A stretch of DNA of 32,000 nt from Candidatus Saccharimonadota bacterium (GTDB taxonomy: Bacteria > Bacillota_I > Bacilli_A > Mycoplasmatales > Hepatoplasmataceae): the NCBI GenBank assembly GCA_027925325.1, contig AP027133.1, positions 300,001-332,000 of the forward strand, read 5' to 3'. The translations under genes and the position numbers were made by a program. This document shows positions 1 through 28,434 of this stretch, in pieces. Positions within the stretch are counted from its first letter, which is position 1. The number at the start of each line of letters is the position of its first letter. The notes under the pieces are model-generated. The model was not told the origin of the DNA. It saw nothing but the letters and a program-made list of their open reading frames with translations, and did no database searches.

Positions 1-1566
1 GGTGTAATTAATAGTTTTTCCTATCCACAAAAGATAGTTCCGCAAAATCAAATAAATTGAAAAGGAAAGATTATTGATTTATCCTTGGGAACAGATTTTA
101 GCGGGGTGATAATTGATACTAATTTAGATAATTATGGTGACACACTTTATATGTGAGGTAACAATAGTAATGGACAATTAGGAAATGGTAATATTGAAAA
201 TTTAAATTATCCTAAAATTATTACCCCACAAAATGAATCTTGAAATGGTAATTTAATTGATCTTGAATTGGGAGAAAAGGATTCAGCGCTTACTATTGAT
301 ACTAATTATGATGGATATGCCGATACCCTTTATATGTGAGGAAGTAATGAATTTTTGCAATTAGGTCAAGAAGATTCCAATTTAAATAATCAAATTTATC
401 CAACAATAACAGAACCAAATAATATAAATGGATTTGATGGTAATATTTTAGATTTATCGACATCAAAATATAGTTCTGGGGTAATTATTGATAATAATTT
501 AGATAATTATGGTGATACATTATATATGTGAGGGACAAATATAAATGGCGTAATTGGCAATAATATCGATTCAAATATAACTCCTACTATTATTTCCTCT
601 TTTCCTGGTAATTTAATTAAATTTGTAACGAAAAATCAAAATTCTGGTGTTACCGTTGATACTGATTTAGATGGATATGCTGATACTCTCTATATGTGAG
701 GAGATAATCAATATGGTGAAGCTGGAACAGGGGATATTGATCAAAATGTTATTTATACTCCGATAGAAATATTACCCTATTTTGGTAGTTGAGAAGGAGA
801 TATTTTAAATTACGCAATCGGTGATACTTATGCAAGTGTTGTAGTAGATAGAAATTATGATCAACATGGTGATACTTTGTATATGTGAGGAAGTAATCAA
901 TATGGTGAAATAGGATTGGCACCTTCTCCTAATGTCATTCTTCCTAACGATGTCTTTAATTTAATTAGTTATTCTATTTCCGAGCTTTTAATAACAAATA
1001 ACAATGATCATGGCTTAAATTTAAGATTATCTTTAAATGATTATTGAGATATTTTCAATATTAACAATCTTCCAGAAGTTACTTTATATGATCAATATAA
1101 TTCAGAATATTCTCTAACTTATTTAGAAGATTTATCAAATCCTGATAGTGACTTATATTATTTTGAAATTAATGATCTTAATTCAGGAACAAAATATATT
1201 TTTGAAAAAATAAAAATCGATCAATTACATTTTCATTTTCCTGAAATTATTGCAATAAGTGATTATTATATTTCTGGGATGGAAGTAAAATCAATTGGAA
1301 CTAATGATGTGGTTTTTGATCTTGATTTAATTTTGGCAGATAATTTAAATATTAGTTATTTTGATTTTAACGAAAGAAAAGTAAGAGTAAATTTTAGTAA
1401 TGATACTTATCAAGAAGCATTAATTAATAATGATCGTAGTGTTAAATTAATTAATTTAACTGCTAATACCAATTATCAAATAACTAGCATTGATTATTTT
1501 TATCAAGATCAACAATATAAATATAACTTGGTAACTGATATGGCTTTTAAAACTTTAGCAGAATAA
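1..1566 (+). CDS. RCC1-repeat (beta-propeller) protein with two C-terminal FN3/Ig-like beta modules; the 5' end runs off the window
   Basis: Frame 1 is open from base 1 to TAA 1564-1566 when the nine in-frame TGA codons are read as Trp. There are five evenly spaced copies (56-64 codons apart) of the RCC1 blade signature ...(G/A)DTLYMWG.N..G(Q/E/V)(L/I/A)G. The Trp in each copy is encoded by TGA (154, 337, 529, 697, 886). The tail from ~950 has two ~95-aa beta-rich modules (...LNSGTKYIFEKIKID; ...LTANTNYQITSIDYF). Confidence 0.8.
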
Positions 1567-6680: not shown

Positions 6681-6695
6681 GCATCATAACATATA

Positions 6696-6737
6696 AAATC
6701 TAACAATTTTAATTGTTAGATTTTTGTTCTTTTTTTA
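6696..6737 (+). terminator. intrinsic terminator downstream of glpF
   Basis: An inverted repeat AAATCTAACAA(TT) / (AA)TTGTTAGATTT gives an 11-13 bp stem including two G:C pairs. It is followed by TTGTTCTTTTTTT. Confidence 0.55.
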
Positions 6738-6806
6738 TAAAGTGAGAAAATTATATTAGTACAAGGGTTTATTTAATGTTGTAAAGAATAATTTCAAGAG
6801 GGAAAG

Positions 6807-8396
6807 ATGAAACTAGCGAAAATTTATATTAAAAGATTTAAAAATATAGAGAATTTGGAGATAAATTTTGAGAAATATAAGAATCTAATAAGTATCATCG
6901 GTTTAAATAATATTGGAAAAACAAATATTTTAGAAGCAATATATTTTTTTGAAACTTTAAAAATAAAAAAGCTTCGGAAAAATGAAGAAAAATTACAAAG
7001 TGTGAGTTTTTATTATAAACTAGATCAAGATGATCAAAATATTTTCTTTGATAATTATCTTGAAGAAACAAGATTAATTGATATAAATAATTATAAAAAA
7101 AATGAAAAGTATTTAAATGAAAAACATGAAAAGCAATTTAATAAAACATATAATAAAAGCAAATCAAATTGAGAAAAATTAAGAATTTTTGAAATTAATG
7201 TAAGTTGAGATAATGAGAAAAAAGAATATATTCGATATTTTCCTGAAGAAATTATTAATTCAAAATATTTTTATAATAAAATTTATCAAGAAAATAAATT
7301 TAAGGTTTTTTATTTTGATAAAACCGTAAAGAAAAATTTTCTCGAAAATCAATTTTTACTTAAAAATAAAATCTTTAAACAAATATTGAAAAATATTGGA
7401 TATGAAGATTTTATTGTTAATTTTTATAATTACAATGATATTGAATTAAATGATTGAATTGAAAAAATAGAAAAATCTCTTGCCGTTTTTCTTTTTGATA
7501 ATTGAAATGATAATTTTAGCATAAAATATAGTGTGAAATTGATATTAATAGATCGAAAAGAAGGAAAATTTTCTTTAATAATTAGTAACAAAAATAATAA
7601 AAAAAATAATTTTCAATTAGAAGAAAGTAGCGATGGATTAACTTCAATTATTCTTATGAAATTATCAATCGGAGAAACCTTTTCTAAAAGATTAATTTTG
7701 ATTGATGAACCGAATACTTTTTTACACTCATCTGCACAAATTAAATTATTAAAGTATTTTAAAAAAATAGTAGCAAAAAATGATTGTAAACTAATTTATA
7801 CGACACATTCTGAGCATCTTGTAGATTCTGATGTTCCTGTAATTTATAAAGGAAAATTAAATTGGGAGATAAAAATAATAAATGATATAAAAGAATATCA
7901 AAATATTCAGCTAAAAGTTTTAGCGAATAATCTATTAATTAATAATCCTATTAATTTAATTTTGAAAAAAGAAAAAGATTTTTATAAATTCATTGAATTC
8001 TATAATAAAAAAGAATATAAAATGTCTCTTACTTATATTCATACGTTATTAGAAAAAGAATTAAATATATTCATCTATAAATTAAATTTAAATGATCAAA
8101 TTAGCAAAAAAAATAATATGTATGATAAATTAAAATTAATTTTAGAAAAAATTGAATTTGATAATTTTAAATTGAATTTACCAGCAGAAAAACAATTAAT
8201 TGAAATTATTAAAAATAACTTTAAAAATACACTCTATCTTTCATCTTTTCGAAATAGTGCAAGTTATGCTCATACCAATAGAATAAAAGATATTGATCTT
8301 GAAAATATCATTCCGATTGTTATTTTTACTTATCTTGCAAATATTGAATTTTTGCGAAGATTTACAGAGATTATAATTGAGAGGAAAGAAGAATAA
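6807..8396 (+). CDS. orphan ABC/OLD-type (AAA_15/21-like) ATPase with a C-terminal helical domain bearing an RNx5H (HEPN-like) motif; candidate PrrC-like abortive-infection/defence nuclease
   Basis: ATG 6807 follows AGAGGGAAAG. Track fragments 6807..7172 and 7533..8396 share a frame and are joined by a stretch with four TGA and no TAA/TAG, giving 529 aa. Motifs seen are Walker A IIGLNNIGKTNILEAI, signature-like SSDGLTSIIL, Walker B/D-loop RLILIDEPNTFLH, and H-loop LIYTTHSEHL. The C-terminal ~190 aa contain FRNSASYAHTN (8250-8273). Confidence 0.75.
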
Positions 8397-9321
8397 ATTT
8401 AGCGATAAATAATTGATAATTTGTTGAACTATAGTTTGATTTAAAAAGAATTAGACTTTTAATTAATTTATTGATAATTTCTTCAATATATTGGTAACTA
8501 TAATTATTTGCGTTCTCGATGATTTTTTTTAGTCTATATTTATTTAAATTTAAATCTAAAATTGATGTTTTTTGTTTTAGCTTTAAATTTTGATAATTTT
8601 TAATTAAAAGTAAATATTGTAATTCCTTAATTAAGTATTCTATTATCATGATTGGTGATATATTTTTAGTTTTAAGAGAATTCAAAATTTTACTTAAGTT
8701 AGAAATATTTTTTGCAAGTAACGAATCATATAATTTAAAAATGTTTTCACCTACATAATCATAAATAATTAAATCGAGATCATTTGTAATGCTTTTATCT
8801 TTTAATAAAGAAATTTTTTTTAATTCATTATGTAAGATATCATAATCATATTTTACATATCCAAGTATTTTATTAATTTTATAGGAATCAAAAAAAAGAT
8901 TATCTTGTTTTAATTTTTCTCTTAAAAATTTATTAATTTCCATTTTACTAGGAATTTGTTTATAGATTAAATTAATTTTTTTTGCTTTTAAAAATTCATT
9001 TAAGAAAAGATTATTTTTGCTCAATTTATTTGTTTTAAAAATTAAAAAATTATCATTTTTTGCATTAAATAAAATATTTATTTTTTTGATAAATTTTTTA
9101 TCTAAAATTTTTTTCTCCAAAAATAAACAATTATTGATAATAATAATTTTTTTTTCTCCAAAAATAGAATTACTTAAATATTGATCAAAAGCTCTTGCAA
9201 ATTGATTTTCAGTGTAATCAAAAATAAAAATTTGTTCTCTTTTAAAATTAGCAAATTTAATAATATTTTCAACTTCTTCTTTTTTAATAAAAAAACTCTC
9301 TGATTGAATAATATATTTCAT
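8371..9321 (-). CDS. holA: DNA polymerase III delta subunit (HolA)
   Basis: This is a contiguous 316-aa ORF. Its N-terminal Rossmann-like part is ...EKKIIIINNCLFLEKK... and its C-terminal helical part is ...KLYDSLLAKNISNLSKILNSLKTKNISPIMIIEYLIKELQYLLLIK..., typical of HolA domain III. The assignment is by pattern, not by search. Confidence 0.6.
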   Translation of the reverse strand: MKYIIQSESFFIKKEEVENIIKFANFKREQIFIFDYTENQFARAFDQYLSNSIFGEKKIIIINNCLFLEKKILDKKFIKKINILFNAKNDNFLIFKTNKLSKNNLFLNEFLKAKKINLIYKQIPSKMEINKFLREKLKQDNLFFDSYKINKILGYVKYDYDILHNELKKISLLKDKSITNDLDLIIYDYVGENIFKLYDSLLAKNISNLSKILNSLKTKNISPIMIIEYLIKELQYLLLIKNYQNLKLKQKTSILDLNLNKYRLKKIIENANNYSYQYIEEIINKLIKSLILFKSNYSSTNYQLFIAKFILLSSQL

Positions 9322-10692: not shown

Positions 10693-11421
10693 TTATTTAT
10701 CAAAGCAGTTTAAATTTTTAATTCTTTTATGTTCGCTGTTTTTATGACAAGCTATAATTTTGGAACTTATTTTCTTATCTAAATTAGGATCATTTTGTCA
10801 ATATCTTTCAAGATCTTCATATTTAAATCCTAATTCCTTTTCATCTGTCTGTCCACATCAAAGATCAGCACTTGGTTTTTGTTTAAGTATTTTTGTAGGA
10901 AGTTTTAGCAATAAACCTAATTGATAGATTTCTGATTTTTTAAATTTTGCAATTGGATAAATATCTGCAGCTCCATCTCCTCATTTTGTAAAATAACCCA
11001 AATACATTTCAGAATAATTTGATGTTCCGATAACAAGATAGTCTTTCATATTTGCATAAGCATATAAAGCATTCATTCTTAATCTTGCTTTGATATTACC
11101 TTCAATTAATAAGTTATTATTACCGGAAATATTTAAATCTTTTAAAAAGGCATTAAAACTATTTTCAAGATTTATTAATTGATGATTAATTTTAAATTTA
11201 TCAACTATCAACTTAAAATTATTATGTGCTTCATCTGAAGAATTAATATTTAAAAAAATACCTTCTGTATTTTTTGGAAAAGCAATCTTTGCTAATACAG
11301 CACAAACTGCACTATCTATTCCCCCTGAAATAGCGATGCAAACTCCTTTTGCATTAGCTTTTTTTACTTCTTCTCTAATTCAATTTACAATTTCTTTAAT
11401 TTTTGTTTCTTTTATTTTCAT
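10693..11421 (-). CDS. nadE: NH3-dependent NAD+ synthetase
   Basis: The gene runs from ATG 11421 to TAA 10693-10695 (242 aa). It has the PP-loop CIAISGGIDSAVCA and ...[25 protein letters not shown]... Track fragment 10981..11211 is extended both ways. Confidence 0.85.
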
Positions 11422-12154
11422 TATTAGTATTCTCGATAATTTTTTCTGTTTTTCGATTAGGATCAATTTTTAATTTATCTTCTTTTACTTTACTTTTTGT
11501 TTTCTCGTTTTGAATATTTTTATGATTAACTTCTCTTTTTATTGCTTTTTCTTTTTCTTCTTGCTTTAAAATTTTGATAATTTTTTTAAATTCATCATTT
11601 TCTATCTTTAAAGTTTTCTGTTTTGCTCTTAATTTTTTTAAAATACTTGTCGATCTTATGTATTTATTTTCAATTTTTAATTTATCTTCTTTTAAAAGGA
11701 TAAATTCTTCTTCTAATTTTTTACTTTTTTTGCAATTTGCTTCAATTTTTTTTGTTTTTTCTTTTAATTGCAATAGTTCTTCTTCTTGTAAATTTATTTT
11801 TTCTGCTTGTTTGTGTATTTTTTCTTTTGCTTTATTTATTTTTGTTTGCAAGAAAGATGATTCTAATAATTTTTGCTTATCAATAAAATTATTTTCTAAA
11901 AAATAAAAATAAATTAAACTAATAGCTTCTGTGATGTATTCTTTTATTTCTTGTTCATCTGCTAATAAATTTTCTAAATTTTCGATTTTTAGAAATTGAT
12001 GAATAAAACTTTCTACTCCATAAACAATAATTTTAAGATTGTGTTCTGGATTATTTTTAAAATTATTATTATTTGAGATAACTTTTAATAATTTTTTTAT
12101 TTTTTGAAGATGATACATTAAATCTTTATTATTTAATTTATCGTTTTTAACCAT
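11396..12154 (-). CDS. hypothetical K/E-rich coiled-coil protein
   Basis: ATG 12154 is preceded by AAGGAA; the track uses an upstream TTG at 12199. A ~110-aa helical N-domain is followed by a long heptad-like K/E region. The 3' end overlaps the nadE start by 26 nt. Confidence 0.5.
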   Translation of the reverse strand: MVKNDKLNNKDLMYHLQKIKKLLKVISNNNNFKNNPEHNLKIIVYGVESFIHQFLKIENLENLLADEQEIKEYITEAISLIYFYFLENNFIDKQKLLESSFLQTKINKAKEKIHKQAEKINLQEEELLQLKEKTKKIEANCKKSKKLEEEFILLKEDKLKIENKYIRSTSILKKLRAKQKTLKIENDEFKKIIKILKQEEKEKAIKREVNHKNIQNEKTKSKVKEDKLKIDPNRKTEKIIENTNNENKRNKN

Positions 12155-12221
12155 AATAATACTATTCCTTAGAAATTTATATAATAAAGATTTAGACAAT
12201 TAAATTGCCTAAATCTCTGTC

Positions 12222-13769
12222 TTATTTTTTCTTTTTATTTAAAATATCATTAATCTCATTTAATTCTTGTTGAATTGTTCTAATTATTTCATCTTCATCG
12301 TAATTACTATTATTATATTTTTCAATTATTCTCTTATTATTATTTTCTTTTTTTAAATAACCGCTTTCTTCTTTGATCCCATTCTCAATTTTACTTACTT
12401 TTCTTGCTAATTTTTCAATTTCATTTTCAACTGAAAGTAATATATTTTCAATTCGATCATTTTTCTTAACTTCGTGACTACCTAAATTATTTTCCTTTAT
12501 CTGGTATTTTTCTTTATATTTTTCTTCAATCTCTCTTTCCAGTTGCTGGCGTGCAATTTGCTCTGAATTTTGTCTTGCTAATTTTAAATTTTCTTCTTGT
12601 AATTTTTTTAAATTTTCAAACTCATGATCCAATGAATGTTTAAAATAATAATCATCACCATAATACTTTTCTCTTTGATTACGATTTTGTGGATAATAAT
12701 CCTCACGATAATTTTCTCTTTGATATCTTAAACGATTTAATTCAGCATTCTCTCTTTTTAAACGTTCCAATTCATCTTTTTCATGCATCATTTTTAGATA
12801 TCTTAAATAATTTTCTTCTTCATCTAATTTGTCATCATAAAAACGCCGACCTTTTTTAAGAACATTATCTTTTTCTTCTTTTAATTGTTCTAATTCTTTT
12901 TTGATAGATTCACGTTCATTTTTAAGGAAAAATATTAACTCACGTTCTTTTTTTAATTGTTCTAATTCTTCTTTTCTTGATTCTAAATTTTCTATATTAA
13001 CTTCTTTTGTCAATAAAGGCTCTTTATTTTCTTCAGAAAATTTAGCTAATGCTTGCTTTTCTGCTTGTTCTTTTGCAAAATCTAAACGTTTTTTTTCAAT
13101 ATCTAATTTTTCTTGTTCGATTTTTAATTTGGCTTGTTCCAATTTAAATTGTTCAGAATCTTCTTTAATTTCTTCACTCTTTTCTAAATTAGATTCATCA
13201 TTATTTATTTTTTCTATTTTTTCTTCTTTTACTATTTCACTAAGATTTTGATCATTTTCATAAGTTTTTTTTACAGGTAAAAATTCTTTATTAGTCGCAT
13301 CAGCGGTTTGATTAGTCTCATTTTTAACTTCTGATGATTCTTCTTTCATCTCTCTTAACATAATTAATTGTTCAAGTCGAGCTGTTGAATATTGCTCTGG
13401 ATTTTCAATACCCATTTTTTTCGCTTTTATAACAATTTGATCATCGCTTGCGGTATTCTCATCTTCTAATAAAGCTTCTTTTGCTTCTTGTTGCTCAATT
13501 TTTTGTCTTTCTAATTTTTGTTTTTCCTTTTTAGAAAGTTTTTTATTTTTACCGGTAAATTCTGGATTATCTTGATTTTTTATTATTTTTTTTCTTATTT
13601 TACGATTTTTATAAAAAATCACAAACAGCAAAATTAAAAATATTAAAAAAGTAGCAACTAAAATTATTAATGCTATTATTAACGCCATATTATTTTCTCA
13701 TAGCGTATTTCAATCAGCACCAACTTGTGATTGCATTAAATTTTTCAGTTTTGCTATATTTAAATTCAT
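12222..13769 (-). CDS. membrane-anchored (single N-proximal TM) E/K-rich coiled-coil protein
   Basis: The track ORF starts at ATG 13688 (MALIIALIILVATFLIFLILLFVIFY...). Under code 4 the frame stays open 27 codons further to ATG 13769 (MNLNIAKLKNLMQSQVGADWNTLWENN...). Either start is possible. The remaining ~450 aa are charged coiled coil. Confidence 0.6.
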
Positions 13770-23110: not shown

Positions 23111-24148
23111 TTATTTATTTTTTGTTTTTCTTGAAATATAAATTCCTAATAAACCAAATAAAATTAAATAAATATAAGGAACAAAAATATAAGCCGATCA
23201 TAACCAACAACTAAAAGAAAACATTTTATATCTAAATAATACTCATGTGCTAGGATCATTTGGATTTATGATTAATTTATCATTATTAGATGGATCAATT
23301 CCAGGAAGATAAAGTGATGTGGTTCGATAAAAATTAACAAATACATCATATTGACTTCATTGAATGATTCAATAATATGGATTTAACATATGAATAAATT
23401 GAAAAATATTAAAATCATAAAAAAAGGTCTTATCAACTCTTGCATTACGATCAAAATAAGGTTTAAAAGTTAAAACCTGACTTTCTGAATCATAAGAATA
23501 ATAATAAATAGCATCAGCTGAATCTGAATATGGTTTTGAAAAAACAGCACGAAAGACAAAAGTAGCAGAAAAAAGCAAAATTATCACAAATACAAAAAGA
23601 ATAACGATAAAATAATTCCTTAAATTTTTACTAAAGGATTGAATTAAAAAAGCAATTACAAAAGATTCAAAAAAGATAATTAAAACATAATAAATTAAAA
23701 TTCCTCATCGAAGTTGATTAAAATCTTTAATTTGATAATAAATTATATTTTTATTTTGCAAATCTCAAAAAGCGACAATATTTAATGCGTGAAATATATA
23801 AAGATATGTAAGAGCGATAAAAAAAGAAAAAAAAGCAAATAAAAGTAAATTTATAAAAATAGGAAAATAAATTTGAAATTTGTTGGTAGTTTTTTGTTTT
23901 ATTAAAAAATAAAAATGAGATCTTCTAATATTAAAAAATATCAAGCCATAAAATAAAAAAGTATTAAAAATAATTGAATAAGCGATCGTACTATCAATTG
24001 ATAAAACAGTCGGCGTTTGCAGAAAAAAAGCAAGATCAAAAAATAAAGGAGTAAAGAATAAAGTTATATAAAATCAGAGAGATTTTATACTTTTTTTAAA
24101 ATAAAAATTTATCAAATAAAAAGTCTTAAAATTGTATCTATTCCCCAT
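23111..24148 (-). CDS. tandem-array 6-TM membrane protein, copy A (345 aa; divergent subtype)
   Basis: ATG 24148 (alternative 24160) to TAA 23111-23113, with the frame checked. It contains track fragment 23369..23587. It has the shared blocks ...YYYSYDSESQVLTFKPYFDRN..., MLNPYYW, DPSTWV and FSFSCWLW. Confidence 0.75.
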
Positions 24149-24173
24149 TTTTCAACTCATTTACTAAAATATT

Positions 24174-25223
24174 TTAATCATTATATTTTTTTTTCTTTTT
24201 TACAATCAAAGCCCCTAAAAAACTATAAGTAAAGATAAAAATATATGGAACAAAAATATAGGATGCTCATAATCAATTTGTAAATGAGAACATTACATAA
24301 TCATATTTTACTCATGTACTAGGGTCATTTTGATCTATTACAATTTCATTAAGTCCCGGAAGTGTAAGTGATGTTGTTCGATAACTATCGATAAAAATAT
24401 CATATTGCCCTCATACCGTAATATAGTAAAAAGGATTAAACATTTGTATAAATTTATGAATAGAAAAATCATTGAAAAAGTATTGATTTTCTGTCTTTGG
24501 AGCACTTGGATCAAAATAAGGTTTAAAAGTTAAAATTTGCGTTTCTGGATTATAACTATATAAAAGATCATTTGAATGATTAGAATAAGGAGTAATAAAA
24601 ATTGTAAAAAGCAAGGTTCCTGAAAAAGTTACTATCAAGACAAAAATAAAAACGGTAATTAAAATATAAAAACTAAGATTTCTACTTAAAGTTTGAATTA
24701 AAAATGCTAACGAAATCGAAATAATAAAAATGACAATTATATAATAAATTAATAATCCTCAGCGATAATCAGAAATTTTAGATAATTGATAATGATATTC
24801 AGCATTATTTCAATTTTGAACGGCGATTCAATTAATTTTATCAAATAAAAAAATAAAAAATAATGAAAAAACAAATGTAAGAAAAGTGATAATGATTAAA
24901 TTAAAAAATATTGGTAGATGCGAAATAAATCTATGATTATTAAATTTTTGTTTAATTAAAAGATAAAAATGTGATTTACGAAAATTAAAAAATAATACAC
25001 CATAAAAAATAATAATATTAAAAATTAAAGCAAATACAATCGTACTATCAACAGTTAAAAATGCTGGCAATTGTGTTAGCAAAAATAGACAAAAAAAGAA
25101 AGGAATTAAAATTATTCCAAGATAAAATCAATATGATGTTACTAATTTTTTAAAGTAAAATCTCGTTAATTCAAATAAATATCGGTTTTCAAAAAAACCT
25201 ACATTCTTATTTCTTATTCGCAT
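24174..25223 (-). CDS. tandem-array 6-TM membrane protein, copy B (349 aa)
   Basis: ATG 25223 to TAA 24174-24176, with the frame checked. It joins fragments 24411..24638 and 24828..25082 through TGA codons. Confidence 0.8.
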
Positions 25224-25249
25224 TTATTTTAAAACCTTATAATATGATA

Positions 25250-26290
25250 TTATCTTTTTTTCTTTTTTTTCGCAATAAAAATTGCTAAAAAAGTATAAAA
25301 GATAATAAAAAGATAAGGGGCAAAAATATAAGATGCTCATAATCAATTTGTAAATGAAAACATTACATAATCGTATAATACCCATGTGCTAGGATCGTTT
25401 TGATCTATTACGATTTCAGGAAGACCCGGAAGTGAAAGTGATTTTGTTGCATAACTCTCAGTAAAAATATCATATTGCCCTCATTCTGTAATATAGTAAA
25501 AAGGATTAAACATTTTCATAAATGTAAAAAAAGAGAAATTGTTCAGAAAACGTAAATTAGGATTATTACTAGGATCTAAATAAGGTTTAAAAGTTAAAAC
25601 TTGTGTTTCTGGATTATAACTATATAAAAGATCCTCTGAATTATTAGAGCGAGGAGAAACAAAAGTTGAAAAATCAAACGCCGTTCCCGAAAAAAGCATA
25701 ATCAAAATGAAAATAAAAATCATTAATAAAAAATAAAAATTAAGATTTTTACTTAATATTTGAATCAAAAAAGCTACCGAAATAGAAACTATAAAAATGA
25801 TAGAAATATAATAAATTAATAATCCTCAGCGATAATCAGAAATTTTAGATAATTGATAATAATGTCCTTCAGTATGAGTTCAATCTCTAGCTGCAATTCA
25901 ATTAAGTTGATCAAATAAAAAAATAAAAAATAATGAAAAAGAAAAAGTAATAAATGCAATGATAACCAAATTAAAAAAAATTGGAAGATGAATCATAAAT
26001 TTATGATTATCAAATTTTTGTTCAATTGAAAAATAAAAGTGTGATTTACGAAAATTAAAAAATAAGACACCATAAAAAATAATAGTATTAAAAATTAAAG
26101 CAAAACCGATTGTACTACCAACAGTTAAAAATGCTGGTAATTGTGTTAGTAAAAATAAACAGAAAAAAAGAGGAATTAAAATTATTCCAAGATAAAATCA
26201 ATATGATGTTACTAGTTTTTTAAAATAAAAAAATGTTAATTCAAGCAAATATTGATTTCCAAAAAAACTTAAATTCTTATTTCTTTTCAC
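25250..26290 (-). CDS. tandem-array 6-TM membrane protein, copy C (346 aa; GTG start)
   Basis: GTG 26290 to TAA 25250-25252, with the frame checked. It contains fragment 25481..25768. The ATG homologous to the B/D starts (26292) is out of frame. Confidence 0.7.
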
Positions 26291-26317
26291 ATTTATTTCA
26301 AGCCTTATAATATGATA

Positions 26318-27364
26318 TTATCTTTTTTTCTTTTTCTTAGCAATAAAAATCGCTAAAAAAGTGTAGGAGAAAATAAAAAGATAGGGAACAAAAATATAAG
26401 ATGCTCATAATCAATTTGTAAATGAGAACATCACATAATCATATAATACTCATGTGCTAGGGTCGTTTTGATCTATTATGATTTCATCAATCCCTGGAAG
26501 AGAAAGTGATGTTATCCGATAACTATCGATAAAAATATCATATTGCCCTCATACTGTAATATAGTAAAAGGGATTAAACATTTGCATAAATTTAAAAAAA
26601 GAAAAATCATAAAAAAACCTTCAAGTAGGAAAAAAGGTTGTATTAGGGTCAAAATAAGGTTTAAAAGTTAAAACATGTGTTTCTGGATTATAACTATATA
26701 AAAGATCATTTGAATTATTAGAATTAGGGAAAGTAAAAATTGTAAAGTTAAGTAAGGTTCCCGAAAACATCATGATTAAAATGAAAATACAAACCGCTAA
26801 TAAAATATAAGAATTTAGCTTTTTACTTAAAACTTGAATTAAAAAAGCTAACGAAATAGAAATTATAAAAATGATAGAAATATAATAAATTAATAATCCT
26901 CAACGATAATCAGAAATCTTAGCAATTTGATAATAATTATCAGGATTACTTCAATTCTGAACCGCAATTCAATTAAGTTGATCAAATAAAAAGATAAAAA
27001 ATAACGAAAAAAGAAATGTAAGAAAAGCAATGATAACTAAATTAAAAAAAATTGGCAGATGTGCCATAAATTTATTATTATCAAATTTTTGTTCAATTGA
27101 AAAATAAAAATGTGATTTCCGAAAATTAAAAAATAAAATTCCATAAAAAATAAAAACATTAAAAATTAAAGCAAATCCAATTGTACTATCAACAGTTAAA
27201 AAAGCTGGCAATTGTGTTAGTAAAAATAAACAAAAAAAGAAAGGAACTAAAATTATTCCAAGGTAAAATTGATACGACGTAATAATTTTTTTAAAATAAA
27301 ATAACATTAATTCAAAACAAATATTGATTTGAAAAAAATTCCCATTTTTATTTTTTATTTGCAT
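26318..27364 (-). CDS. tandem-array 6-TM membrane protein, copy D (348 aa)
   Basis: ATG 27364 to TAA 26318-26320, with the frame checked. It extends fragment 26969..27364 through TGA codons. Confidence 0.8.
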
Positions 27365-27390
27365 TTATCTTAAAACCTTATAATATGATA

Positions 27391-28434
27391 TTATCTTTTT
27401 TTCTTTTTTTTCGCAATAAAAATCCCTAAGAAACCATAAAAGAAAATGAAAATATAAGGAACAAAAATATAAGATGATCATAATCAATTTGTAAACGAAA
27501 ACATCACATAGCTATATCTTACTCATGTACTAGGATCACTTTCATTTATTATAATTGGATCAATTCCGGGAAGAGAAAGTGATGTTGTTCGATAAAAATC
27601 AATAAAAATATCAAATTGTCCTCATGCCGAGATGTAATAATAAGGATTAAACATCTCAATGAAACGACCGAAGGTAAAATCTTGAAAAAATCTTTTATTA
27701 AAAAAATCAGGGTCGTTTCGATCAAAATATGGTTTAAAGGTTAAAATTTGTTCATTTTGATCATAATTATATAATAATTCATTACTATTATCTTTATATC
27801 TTGGTGTATCAAATGCCGATGTTATTCCAAATGTCCCAGAAAAAAGAATTATGATTATTATTACAAATAGTGAAAATAAAAGAAATGAATTAAAATTATT
27901 ACTTAAATTTTGCAATAAAAAAGCCAATGTAAAAGTAATCATAAAAATAATAAGCAAATAATAAATTAGTAACCCTCAGCGAAAATCAGCAATATCTTTA
28001 ATTTGATAAAAATAATTTTCACTATAATTTCATGTTTCCAAAAATAATCAATCACTATTTACAAAAATATAAAAAAATAAAATTGCAAAAAAAGTTGTAA
28101 AAATAACAACAATTAATAAATTAAGAAAAATTGGAAAATAAATAAATATCTTCTTATAATTAAATTTTTGATTTATCAAAAGATAAAAATGCGATTTATG
28201 AAAAGAGAAAAATAAAATTCCATAAAACAATAAAATATTAAAAATTAGCGAAAAGGAAATCACACTATCAACGACCAAAAATGTCGGTGTCTGTGTAAGA
28301 AAGGCGAGACTAAATAAAAAAGGAACGATAATTATTAAAAAATAAAATCAAACCGAAAAGATCATTTTCCTGAAAAAAAACAAGAAAAGTCCTACAAAGT
28401 TATGATATAAATCTACATTCTTTTGTTCTTTCAT
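27391..28434 (-). CDS. tandem-array 6-TM membrane protein, copy E (347 aa; divergent subtype)
   Basis: ATG 28434 to TAA 27391-27393, with the frame checked. It joins fragments 27622..27957 and 28048..28278. It starts 19 nt after the nrdF stop. Confidence 0.8.

What the first reader, a model, noticed from the sequence alone, without database searches (positions are those of the whole stretch)
6807..8396. Stand-alone ABC/OLD-type ATPase fused to a helical C-terminal domain with an RNx5H (HEPN-like) motif
The track splits this gene, but it is one 529-aa CDS with four internal TGA=Trp codons. The N-terminal ~340 aa form a RecF/SMC/OLD-style ATPase head with Walker A GLNNIGKT, a long helical insertion, SSDGLTSIIL, Walker B LILIDEPNTFLH and THSEHL. 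The last ~190 aa (about 7830-8393) look all-helical and carry F-R-N-S-A-S-Y-A-H-T-N (8250-8273) about 45 residues from the C-terminus. HEPN RNase domains place their Rx4-6H catalytic motif in that position and in that form, often as R-N-...-A-H. An ABC-like NTPase plus a C-terminal HEPN domain is the architecture of the PrrC/RloC anticodon nucleases and other abortive-infection ATPases. Here no hsd/R-M or other defence genes flank it. This is a candidate single-gene, NTP-gated RNase defence or toxin module in a minimal genome.
Basis: partly seen in the sequence, partly recalled or inferred. Interest (0 to 1): 0.7.

Follow-up and report, generated by a model that had tools for sequence, protein, structure and literature searches.

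The report
OLD-type ATPase with orphan C-terminal domain
This is a real, intact gene of an isopod-gut mycoplasma-like symbiont: a defence-type ATPase that has lost the usual nuclease domain and carries a unique helical tail, and the tail could be an RNA-cutting (HEPN) domain but nothing beyond one short motif shows it.

Summary
Window 6807-8396 (+) is one 529-aa CDS read with TGA=Trp (four internal TGA). It is identical to HPPSJP_2610 of Candidatus Hepatoplasma scabrum. Residues 1-340 are an AAA_15/OLD-type ABC ATPase (Pfam 1e-22) with intact Walker A, signature, Walker B and H-loop motifs. The nearest relatives outside the genus are ~600-aa OLD-type ATPase-Toprim proteins, one of them inside a type I R-M locus.

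The last ~190 aa are an orphan. An exhaustive HMMER search of 1.84 billion representatives found only the protein's own cluster. Pfam, PADLOC, NCBIfam, PDB, phages and plasmids gave no significant hit.

R482-N-x5-H489 exists, is invariant and sits where a HEPN motif should. But the orthologs are 76-85% identical overall, and shuffling gives such a motif by chance in 3-15% of cases. AlphaFold2 models were low-confidence (pLDDT 47-53), and Foldseek gave nothing significant. Only sub-threshold hints remain (Abi_C, Csm6_6H, HepT).

The gene is intact, syntenic and under purifying selection (dN/dS 0.12-0.19) in seven H. crinochetorum/scabrum-clade assemblies. No ortholog was detected in H. vulgare or other Mollicutes.

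Verdict: a new variant of the ABC-ATPase defence theme. The HEPN reading is unproven, at roughly 25-30%.

The parts
6695..6724 (+). 13-bp hairpin followed by a U-run. It is the likely intrinsic terminator of the upstream glpF/MIP gene, so the ATPase gene is probably its own transcription unit.
   Evidence: Seen in the sequence. RNA fold -12.5 kcal/mol, z = -4.1, 0 of 200 shuffles as stable. The consensus terminator scan missed it because the stem is AT-rich.
6807..8396 (+). Single 529-aa CDS (genetic code 4), ATG start, TAA stop, preceded by the AGAGGG Shine-Dalgarno-like sequence at 6797-6802.
   Evidence: 100% identical to HPPSJP_2610 of Ca. Hepatoplasma scabrum.
7170..7505 (+). Span containing the four in-frame TGA=Trp codons (7170-7172, 7206-7208, 7455-7457, 7503-7505; W122, W134, W217, W233). 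All lie in the ATPase insert region.
   Evidence: Each of the six orthologous genes read also has four in-frame TGA codons.
6807..7826 (+). ABC ATPase head of the AAA_15/OLD type (aa 1-340).
   Evidence: Pfam AAA_15 1.2e-22 and AAA_21 9e-12. PADLOC AriA/mad3/PtuA/Old/GajA models 1e-22 to 1e-14. PDB Rad50 and OLD 6p74 by sequence. Foldseek of the full-length model hits Rad50, SMC, OLD, PtuA and GajA at E 1e-6 to 1e-5.
6900..6923 (+). Walker A / P-loop, G32-L-N-N-I-G-K-T39.
   Evidence: Invariant across Hepatoplasma and 21 OLD-type relatives (G32, G37, K38, T39).
6987..7616 (+). Mostly helical insert between Walker A and the signature motif (aa ~61-270). It is the least conserved part of the protein.
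   Evidence: 63-76% identity and dN/dS 0.20-0.36, against 0.02-0.12 for the catalytic segments. Helices in the model.
7626..7655 (+). ABC signature-like motif, S274-S-D-G-L-T-S-I-I-L.
   Evidence: E273, S275 and G277 are invariant with the OLD-type relatives.
7692..7727 (+). Walker B and D-loop, L296-I-L-I-D-E-P-N-T-F-L-H307.
   Evidence: D300, E301, P302, L306, H307 are invariant.
7800..7820 (+). H-loop, T332-T-H-S-E-H-L338.
   Evidence: Y331, T332, T333, H334, S335 are invariant.
7827..8393 (+). Orphan C-terminal domain (aa 341-529): two short strands, then helices. Known only from the H. crinochetorum/scabrum clade.
   Evidence: Exhaustive phmmer against 1.84e9 representatives found only its own cluster. 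The word-indexed search found only a 123-aa fragment of the same gene. No family, PDB, phage or plasmid hit. dN/dS 0.10-0.16.
7860..8081 (+). Most conserved block of the tail (aa 352-425, nearly invariant in six orthologs). It includes one TPR-like helix-turn-helix (aa ~387-420).
   Evidence: Alignment of six orthologs. Sub-threshold matches to Fis1/consensus TPR in PDB (E 0.1-1) and to Pfam Csm6_6H (E 0.013-0.036, aa 389-420, all three orthologs).
8250..8273 (+). R482-N-S-A-S-Y-A-H489, an Rx6H motif with Asn after Arg (HEPN-like). It lies between predicted helix 459-479 and the last helix 495-528.
   Evidence: R, N and H are invariant in six orthologs; S484 is K in the others. Pfam Abi_C matches aa 453-495 of one ortholog at sub-threshold level (E 0.037-0.11).
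8371..8396 (.). 26-nt convergent overlap between the 3' end of the ATPase CDS and the 3' end of holA (minus strand, 8371-9321).
   Evidence: holA = DNA_pol3_delta. The same arrangement with a 20-nt overlap is seen in L001, L002, L011-L013.

Best explanation
The gene encodes a functional ABC ATPase of the OLD/AAA_15 lineage. That lineage serves as the nucleotide-gated sensor in OLD, Gabija, PARIS, Septu and PrrC/RloC-type defences. Here the Toprim nuclease of its nearest relatives is absent. In its place is a lineage-specific ~190-aa, mostly helical domain.

The most likely history (inferred) is acquisition of a stand-alone defence-type ATPase-effector gene by the ancestor of the H. crinochetorum/H. 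scabrum clade. The gene was then retained under purifying selection at a fixed site between glpF and holA.

The most likely mechanism (inferred from the family, not shown here) has two steps:
1. ATP binding engages two heads across the Walker A/signature interface.
2. That nucleotide state controls the fused C-terminal domain.

No partner gene is adjacent, so the tail is probably the effector itself. A metal-independent HEPN-like RNase centred on R482/N483/H489 is the leading single candidate for its chemistry, at about 25-30%. A non-catalytic adaptor role is about as likely.

Shown here: the intact CDS, the ATPase family and its motifs, the orphan status of the tail, the conservation, the synteny and the selection.

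Inferred: the defence origin, ATP gating and any nuclease activity.
For: - CDS and identity.
- ATPase family: Pfam AAA_15 1.2e-22; PADLOC AriA/PtuA/Old/GajA/HEC models.
- Catalytic residues are invariant with 21 OLD-type relatives.
- Relatives are ~600-aa ATPase + OLD-like Toprim proteins. P0004 sits in hsdM-hsdS-[ATPase]; P0007 and P0028 stand alone.
- The tail has no homolog outside its own cluster among 1.84e9 representatives.
- Seven clade assemblies carry an intact, syntenic copy.
- dN/dS is 0.12-0.19 for the whole gene and 0.10-0.16 for the tail, lower than holA, nadE and the neighbouring hypothetical genes.
- A terminator hairpin upstream and a convergent gene downstream make it a monocistronic unit without a partner gene.
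- No ortholog appears among H. vulgare proteins, although H. vulgare is in the searched database.
- ABC ATPase heads with swapped effectors are an established theme in defence (bioRxiv 10.1101/2024.01.29.577857; PMC3710099).
- Hepatoplasmataceae keep other defences, namely type II-A CRISPR-Cas9 and R-M (PMC10928387).
Against: - No experiment or structure supports any activity of the tail.
- Fixed position, intactness and strong purifying selection in a ~606-kb reduced genome fit a housekeeping or domesticated role as well as a defence role. Defence genes are usually variably present.
- Absence from H. vulgare and Tyloplasma rests on negative searches, not on reading their whole genomes.
- AlphaFold2 could not fold even the certain ATPase head with confidence, so nothing structural can be concluded.
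- The most conserved part of the tail is aa 352-425, not the RNx5H segment.
Confidence: 0.6

Rival explanations
1. The C-terminal domain is a true HEPN RNase. The protein would be a single-gene, NTP-gated RNase (PrrC/RloC-like in logic) that cleaves tRNA/rRNA/mRNA when the ATPase senses infection or stress.
For: - R482-N483-x5-H489 fits the Rx4-6H rule, with a polar residue (N) after R. HEPN definition: PMC3710099.
- In the low-confidence model the motif lies just after a long helix (459-479), in the loop before the last helix (495-528). [quoted passage not shown]
- R, N and H are invariant in six orthologs.
- A motif of this stricter form at this position arises in only 0.7% of shuffles.
- Sub-threshold hints: Pfam Abi_C over aa 453-495 in one ortholog (E 0.037-0.11); Csm6_6H upstream in all three (E 0.013-0.036); the HEPN toxin HepT (6m6w_B) has the highest TM-score in an otherwise non-significant Foldseek list (E 3.4, TMt 0.45).
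- Stand-alone ABC ATPases of this lineage normally carry their effector in cis.
Against: - No significant match to any HEPN family in Pfam, PADLOC or NCBIfam, nor to any PDB sequence.
- Foldseek gives 0 hits at E<=1e-3, and the model's pLDDT is 39 at the motif.
- The Abi_C hint appears in one of three orthologs, after about ten queries. Its membership in the HEPN clan is from my memory and was not checked here.
- The looser Rx4-6H form arises by chance in 15% of shuffled tails, and R[NDH]x3-5H occurs in 3 of 23 other ORFs of the window.
- Invariance is uninformative at 81-88% tail identity.
- The best-conserved block is elsewhere, at aa 352-425.
- An unrestrained RNase toxin without a neighbouring antitoxin or R-M partner, fixed in a minimal genome, would be unusual.
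Confidence: 0.27
2. The tail is a non-catalytic helical (partly TPR-like) adaptor or oligomerisation domain, as in PtuA or AriA scaffolds. The protein would act with an unlinked partner, or would have been domesticated as a housekeeping ATPase in DNA or chromosome transactions.
For: - Weak TPR-like matches (Fis1 E 0.097, consensus TPR E 1) in the most conserved block.
- Foldseek alignments of the full-length model to ~530-aa retron/Septu PtuA chains span the whole length (566-603 columns, E about 2e-5).
- Fixed locus, intactness and low dN/dS in seven assemblies of a reduced genome.
- The neighbours holA and dinB are DNA-metabolism genes.
- A recF N-terminal hit, P-loop region only (E 3e-8).
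Against: - No partner gene (HNH, Toprim, PIN, NERD) is adjacent, whereas known scaffold ATPases are encoded next to their effector.
- No sequence similarity of the tail to the PtuA, GajA, OLD or Rad50 chains in PDB.
- The full-length model is low-confidence (pLDDT 25-45 in the tail).
- No ortholog was detected in other Mollicutes, which argues against a core housekeeping role.
- The TPR-like hits are sub-threshold.
Confidence: 0.3
3. The tail is a degenerate, catalytically dead remnant of the OLD-family Toprim domain (E to K, DxD to NLN).
For: - MAFFT places K388-E-K-D-F-Y on the EGKxDFY Toprim-glutamate motif of the relatives, and I-x-D-x-x-E-Y (aa 358-364) on ILDxLEY.
- The tail is 35-50 aa shorter than the relatives' C-terminal regions.
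Against: - hhalign of the two C-terminal profiles gives probability 0.08% and E 0.62.
- An HMM of 32 relatives' C-termini scores the Hepatoplasma tails at -3.8 to +0.4 bits, a range equalled or exceeded by 484 to 1987 of 2000 shuffles.
- The predicted secondary structure is mostly helical, not the alternating beta/alpha of Toprim (low confidence).
- Strong purifying selection on the tail is not expected for a dead remnant.
Confidence: 0.07

Closest known systems
OLD-family nucleases (ABC ATPase + Toprim; P2 Old, Thermus scotoductus OLD 6p74, HEC-04)
   Same: The ATPase head matches: Pfam AAA_15. The nearest non-Hepatoplasma hits are 23-29% identical over aa 1-340, with all catalytic residues shared. 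It is also a single-gene, stand-alone arrangement.
   Different: No Toprim domain. The catalytic Glu and DxD are absent, and there is no statistical similarity of the tail to the relatives' C-termini.
PrrC / RloC anticodon nucleases (ABC ATPase + C-terminal HEPN)
   Same: Same order of parts: an N-terminal ABC ATPase, then a ~190-aa C-terminal domain carrying an Rx4-6H-type motif near its end. A closest ATPase relative (P0004) occupies the PrrC-like position inside a type I R-M locus.
   Different: No sequence similarity of the tail to any HEPN family. The head is AAA_15/OLD-like. There is no hsd linkage here, and H. scabrum lacks type I R-M altogether (PMC10928387). There is no RloC-type coiled coil or zinc hook.
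PtuA (Septu / type I-A retrons) and AriA (PARIS) scaffold ATPases
   Same: AAA_15 head. Similar overall length (~530 aa), with a helical region after the head. PADLOC PtuA/AriA models hit the head, and Foldseek hits PtuA chains.
   Different: Those act with an adjacent nuclease gene (PtuB HNH, AriB Toprim). None is adjacent here. The tail has no sequence similarity to them.
HEPN superfamily (e.g. AbiJ/Abi_C, HepT, Csm6)
   Same: An Rx6H motif with Asn after Arg, located at the junction before the last long helix. Sub-threshold hits to Abi_C and Csm6_6H, and the best (non-significant) TM-score to HepT.
   Different: Nothing reaches significance, the fold is untested and the activity is untested.

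Membership tests
ABC ATPase, AAA_15/OLD-like clade | Profile match over the whole head, with Walker A, signature-like Sx(G), Walker B DE and H-loop | tested here: met
   Pfam AAA_15 E 1.2e-22 (81.6 bits against a cutoff of 32.1), residues 1-339 covering profile positions 1-374 of 374. G32/K38/T39, S275/G277, D300/E301 and H334 are invariant with 21 relatives.
OLD-family nuclease | C-terminal Toprim domain with catalytic Glu and DxD | tested here: not met
   No OLD-like_TOPRIM hit, whereas relatives P0006/P0008/P0019 have it. hhalign probability 0.08%. The HMM score is no better than shuffles. The aligned positions read K and N-L-N.
HEPN superfamily | Rx4-6H motif with a polar (N/D/H) residue after R | tested here: met
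   R482-N483-x5-H489, invariant in six orthologs. Chance is 2.8% per tail for this form and 14.7% for plain Rx4-6H.
HEPN superfamily | Four-helix up-down bundle with the motif at the end of helix 3 / start of the loop to helix 4 | tested here: inconclusive
   In the model the motif lies in the loop between helix 459-479 and helix 495-528, which is compatible. But pLDDT is 52.8 overall and 39 at the motif. Foldseek PDB gives 0 hits at E<=1e-3; HepT 6m6w_B is at E 3.4.
HEPN superfamily | Significant profile similarity to at least one HEPN family | tested here: not met
   No HEPN family in Pfam, PADLOC or NCBIfam at E<=0.01. The best is Abi_C at E 0.037-0.11 (13-14.6 bits against a cutoff of 24) in one ortholog only.
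HEPN superfamily | Metal-independent endoRNase activity dependent on the R and H | not testable with these tools
   Needs biochemistry.
PrrC | Embedded in a type I R-M (hsdMSR) locus that silences it | tested here: not met
   The neighbours are plsY, glpF, holA, dinB and nadE in all loci. H. scabrum has no type I R-M genes (PMC10928387).
PrrC / RloC | Homology of the C-terminal anticodon-nuclease domain | tested here: not met
   The exhaustive search with the tail finds only its own cluster. No PADLOC or Pfam hit for the tail.
PtuA/AriA-type two-gene systems | Adjacent, co-oriented partner nuclease gene | tested here: not met
   A terminator hairpin lies upstream and holA is convergent and overlapping downstream. 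No HNH, Toprim or PIN gene within +/-10 kb in L001.

The most novel reading that the evidence does not exclude
The tail is a previously unrecognised effector family, either a very divergent HEPN RNase or a new fold, that replaced Toprim on an OLD-type sensor ATPase. This single-gene ATP-gated toxin/immune module would then have been fixed and kept active in a ~0.6-Mb host-restricted symbiont genome.
Probability: 0.3. Interest if true: 0.6.

Novelty: new variant of a known kind. Interest (0 to 1): 0.38.

Why it matters
ABC-ATPase sensors fused or linked to interchangeable effectors are a main theme of prokaryotic immunity. This protein would add an effector (or adaptor) domain that has no detectable relative in about 15 billion predicted proteins. 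It would do so in a minimal-genome mollicute where every retained gene is under scrutiny. If the tail is an RNase, it would be a compact, partner-less ATP-gated nuclease. It would also be a rare case of a defence/toxin gene fixed by purifying selection in a reduced symbiont genome. If the tail is not an RNase, the gene is an ordinary lineage-specific ATPase of unknown role. The current evidence does not decide between these, so the practical value is a clearly defined, cheap test set (an HHpred/AF3 dimer model and four point mutants).

Tried and rejected
1. Degenerate Toprim. The MAFFT alignment looked suggestive (KEKDFY against EGKxDFY). hhalign (prob 0.08%) and an HMM-against-2000-shuffles test show no signal, so I rejected it as unsupported.
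2. Homologs of the tail. The word-indexed search and the exhaustive HMMER search of 1.84e9 representatives found only the same gene. tblastn against phages and plasmids found nothing.
3. Structure. AlphaFold2 of the tail with 3 orthologs gave pLDDT 52.8. The full length with 24 sequences gave pLDDT 47.3. Both are too poor. Foldseek on the tail gave no significant hit. On the full length it only recovered the ABC head.
4. PDB profile searches with the tail (A3) and with its last 100 aa (A4) gave only sub-threshold TPR-like hits or nothing.
5. PHROGs. phrog_8323 aligned to aa 1-502 of the full protein, but the tail alone does not hit it. I treat this as alignment over-extension.
6. Genome scan for the ATPase in GTDB representatives failed: the AT-rich degenerate patterns gave 600 matching stretches, none of which tblastn confirmed as a relative. 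A second scan with dinB recovered H. crinochetorum Ps, which has the ATPase, and one 3-kb MAG contig too short to be informative.
7. An 'empty site' in H. vulgare could not be shown. Its glpF lies in a glycolysis cluster with different neighbours, as do two other Hepatoplasmataceae-like contigs.
8. An Ex3[KR] acidic motif (E397-x3-K401, E514-x3-R518) is present, but I count only those two against roughly 2.7 expected by chance in this K-rich tail (my own count from the translation and the composition), so it is not evidence.
Full report
**What is there.** The window has about 22% G+C. Translating 6807-8396 (+) with the standard bacterial code gives a 529-codon frame broken only by four TGA codons, at nt 7170, 7206, 7455 and 7503. 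With the mollicute code (table 4) it is one ORF of 529 aa. The product is 100% identical to HPPSJP_2610, a 'hypothetical protein' of Candidatus Hepatoplasma scabrum on a 606,194-bp contig. That length matches AP027133.1 in the genome paper (PMC10928387). An AGAGGG lies 4 nt before the ATG. Upstream, a 13-bp hairpin plus U-run at 6695-6724 (-12.5 kcal/mol, z = -4.1) probably terminates glpF. Downstream, the CDS overlaps the 3' end of the convergent holA gene by 26 nt. The gene is therefore a stand-alone unit.

**The head.** Residues 1-339 match Pfam AAA_15 end to end (E 1.2e-22) and also AAA_21. PADLOC models for AriA, MAD3, PtuA, Old, GajA and HEC-01A/HEC-04 all hit the head only. PDB sequence hits are Rad50 and an OLD nuclease. 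Even the poor full-length model retrieves Rad50, SMC, OLD, PtuA and GajA with Foldseek (E 1e-6 to 1e-5).

Outside Hepatoplasma the best relatives (E 8e-10 and weaker, 23-29% identity over aa 1-340) are ~590-620-aa proteins that continue into an OLD-like Toprim domain. The best one, P0004, sits directly after hsdM-hsdS in a type I R-M locus. Two others are stand-alone. Walker A (G32, G37, K38, T39), the signature-like S275/G277, Walker B D300/E301 and the H-loop H334 are invariant between Hepatoplasma and 21 of these relatives. The head is therefore very probably an active ATPase of the defence-associated OLD/AAA_15 lineage.

**The tail.** Residues 341-529 have no match above threshold in Pfam, PADLOC or NCBIfam. 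PHROGs gives nothing for the tail alone. PDB sequences, phage genomes and plasmids also give nothing. An exhaustive phmmer search of 1.84 billion cluster representatives returned only the protein's own cluster. It is an orphan domain at the sequence level.

I tested whether it is a decayed Toprim, because MAFFT put KEKDFY on the EGKxDFY motif of the relatives. hhalign gives probability 0.08%. An HMM of 32 relatives' C-termini scores the Hepatoplasma tails no better than shuffled versions. That idea is unsupported.

**The HEPN question.** By the published definition (PMC3710099), a HEPN domain is a four-helix bundle. [quoted passage not shown] The residue after R is usually polar (N/D/H), and there is often an Ex3[KR] in helix 2.

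The motif here (Rx6H, N after R) qualifies. In the tail-only AlphaFold2 model it lies in the loop between helix 459-479 and the terminal helix 495-528. That placement is compatible.

The model is unreliable, however. Its pLDDT is 52.8 overall and 39 at the motif. The full-length model is worse, at 47.3 overall and 25-45 in the tail. Foldseek against the PDB gives no hit at E<=1e-3. The HEPN toxin HepT (6m6w_B) has the best TM-score in the list, but at E 3.4.

Pfam gives only sub-threshold hits:
- Abi_C over aa 453-495 in one of three orthologs (E 0.037-0.11).
- Csm6_6H over aa 389-420 in all three (E 0.013-0.036).
- A TPR-like resemblance of aa 387-439 to Fis1 and consensus TPR (E 0.1-1).

From memory, Abi_C is the AbiJ HEPN domain and 6H is the domain that precedes HEPN in Csm6. 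The two hints would then be mutually consistent. They are leads, not tests.

Shuffling the tail produces Rx4-6H in 14.7% of cases and R[NDH]x3-5H in 2.8%. The stricter motif at the right distance from the end appears in 0.7%. Three of the 23 other ORFs in this window carry R[NDH]x3-5H. Invariance of R, N and H adds little, because the tails are 81-88% identical. The best-conserved block is aa 352-425, not the motif. I put the HEPN reading at about 25-30%.

**Distribution and selection.** The gene is intact (527-529 aa, the same four TGA codons) and sits at the same place, plsY / glpF / ATPase / holA / dinB / nadE, in seven assemblies. These are H. scabrum (the window), H. crinochetorum AP027132 (L001), H. 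crinochetorum Ps (L014) and four Logan assemblies (L002, L011, L012, L013). They form three lineages that are 76-85% identical.

Nei-Gojobori dN/dS is 0.12-0.19 for the gene. That is lower than holA (0.30-0.40), nadE (0.28-0.52) and the adjacent hypothetical genes. Within the gene, the values are:
- Catalytic segments: 0.02-0.12.
- Tail: 0.10-0.16.
- Helical insert: 0.20-0.36.

H. vulgare is much more distant (its glpF is 42% identical), and its proteins are in the searched collection. No H. vulgare, Tyloplasma or other mollicute ortholog appeared. The glpF neighbourhoods of H. vulgare and two other Hepatoplasmataceae-like contigs are different and lack the gene.

The gene is therefore clade-specific but fixed within the clade. 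It argues against a universal housekeeping role.

**Interpretation.** The best-supported account is a defence-lineage ABC ATPase whose Toprim effector has been replaced by a unique helical domain. The gene would have been acquired once and then kept under purifying selection. By analogy with OLD, HEC-04, PrrC/RloC, Gabija, PARIS and Septu (PMC3710099), ATP-driven head engagement would gate the C-terminal domain. With no partner gene adjacent, the tail is probably the effector. A HEPN-like RNase is the leading candidate for its chemistry, and a non-catalytic adaptor (PtuA/AriA-like, partly TPR-like) is about as likely. A dead Toprim is unlikely.

The family is not PrrC/RloC: there is no hsd linkage and no tail homology. 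It is not an OLD nuclease in the strict sense, because there is no Toprim.

**Verdict.** It is a new variant of a known kind (an ABC-ATPase sensor plus a novel C-terminal domain) of moderate interest. What would settle it is profile-profile search with HEPN libraries, a confident dimer model, and four point mutants.

Noticed in passing
window 23111-28434 (-): Five tandem paralogous genes for ~348-aa polytopic membrane proteins, 45-77% identical to each other. The one scanned has no Pfam match. The middle copy (25250-~26300) is open in frame over its full length but lacks an ATG at the equivalent start, so it probably uses a non-ATG start codon.
   Followed up: partly
window 151-1566 (+); L001 1-4705: Large proteins with RCC1/WD40_RLD-type beta-propeller repeats lie upstream of the locus. 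This is unusual content for a ~0.6-Mb mollicute genome. The Pfam labels come from the orthologous H. crinochetorum locus.
   Followed up: no
window 6695-6724 (+): An AT-rich 13-bp hairpin plus U-run after glpF (z = -4.1). The consensus terminator scan misses it because it requires at least 3 G-C pairs. Terminators in this genome will be under-called by GC-based rules.
   Followed up: yes
window 8371-8396: The convergent ATPase and holA coding regions overlap by 26 nt at their 3' ends. A 20-nt overlap is kept in the other Hepatoplasma loci.
   Followed up: partly
window 11396-13769 (-): Two Lys/Glu-rich, probably coiled-coil proteins (252 and 515 aa) lie between nadE and ftsZ. The 252-aa one, the only one scanned, has no Pfam match. 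Both have the highest dN/dS of the neighbourhood (0.35-0.65).
   Followed up: no
L004 3301-7773: The closest non-Hepatoplasma relative of the ATPase (P0004, ATPase + Toprim) is embedded directly after hsdM and hsdS of a type I R-M locus. It is followed by DUF4325 and a faint PIN-domain gene, a PrrC-like 'embedded defence' position.
   Followed up: partly
window 7965-8066 (aa 387-420): One TPR-like helix-turn-helix (KEKDFYKFIEFYNKKEYKMSLTYIHTLLEKE) lies inside the most conserved block of the tail. It has sub-threshold matches to Fis1, consensus TPR and Csm6_6H.
   Followed up: partly
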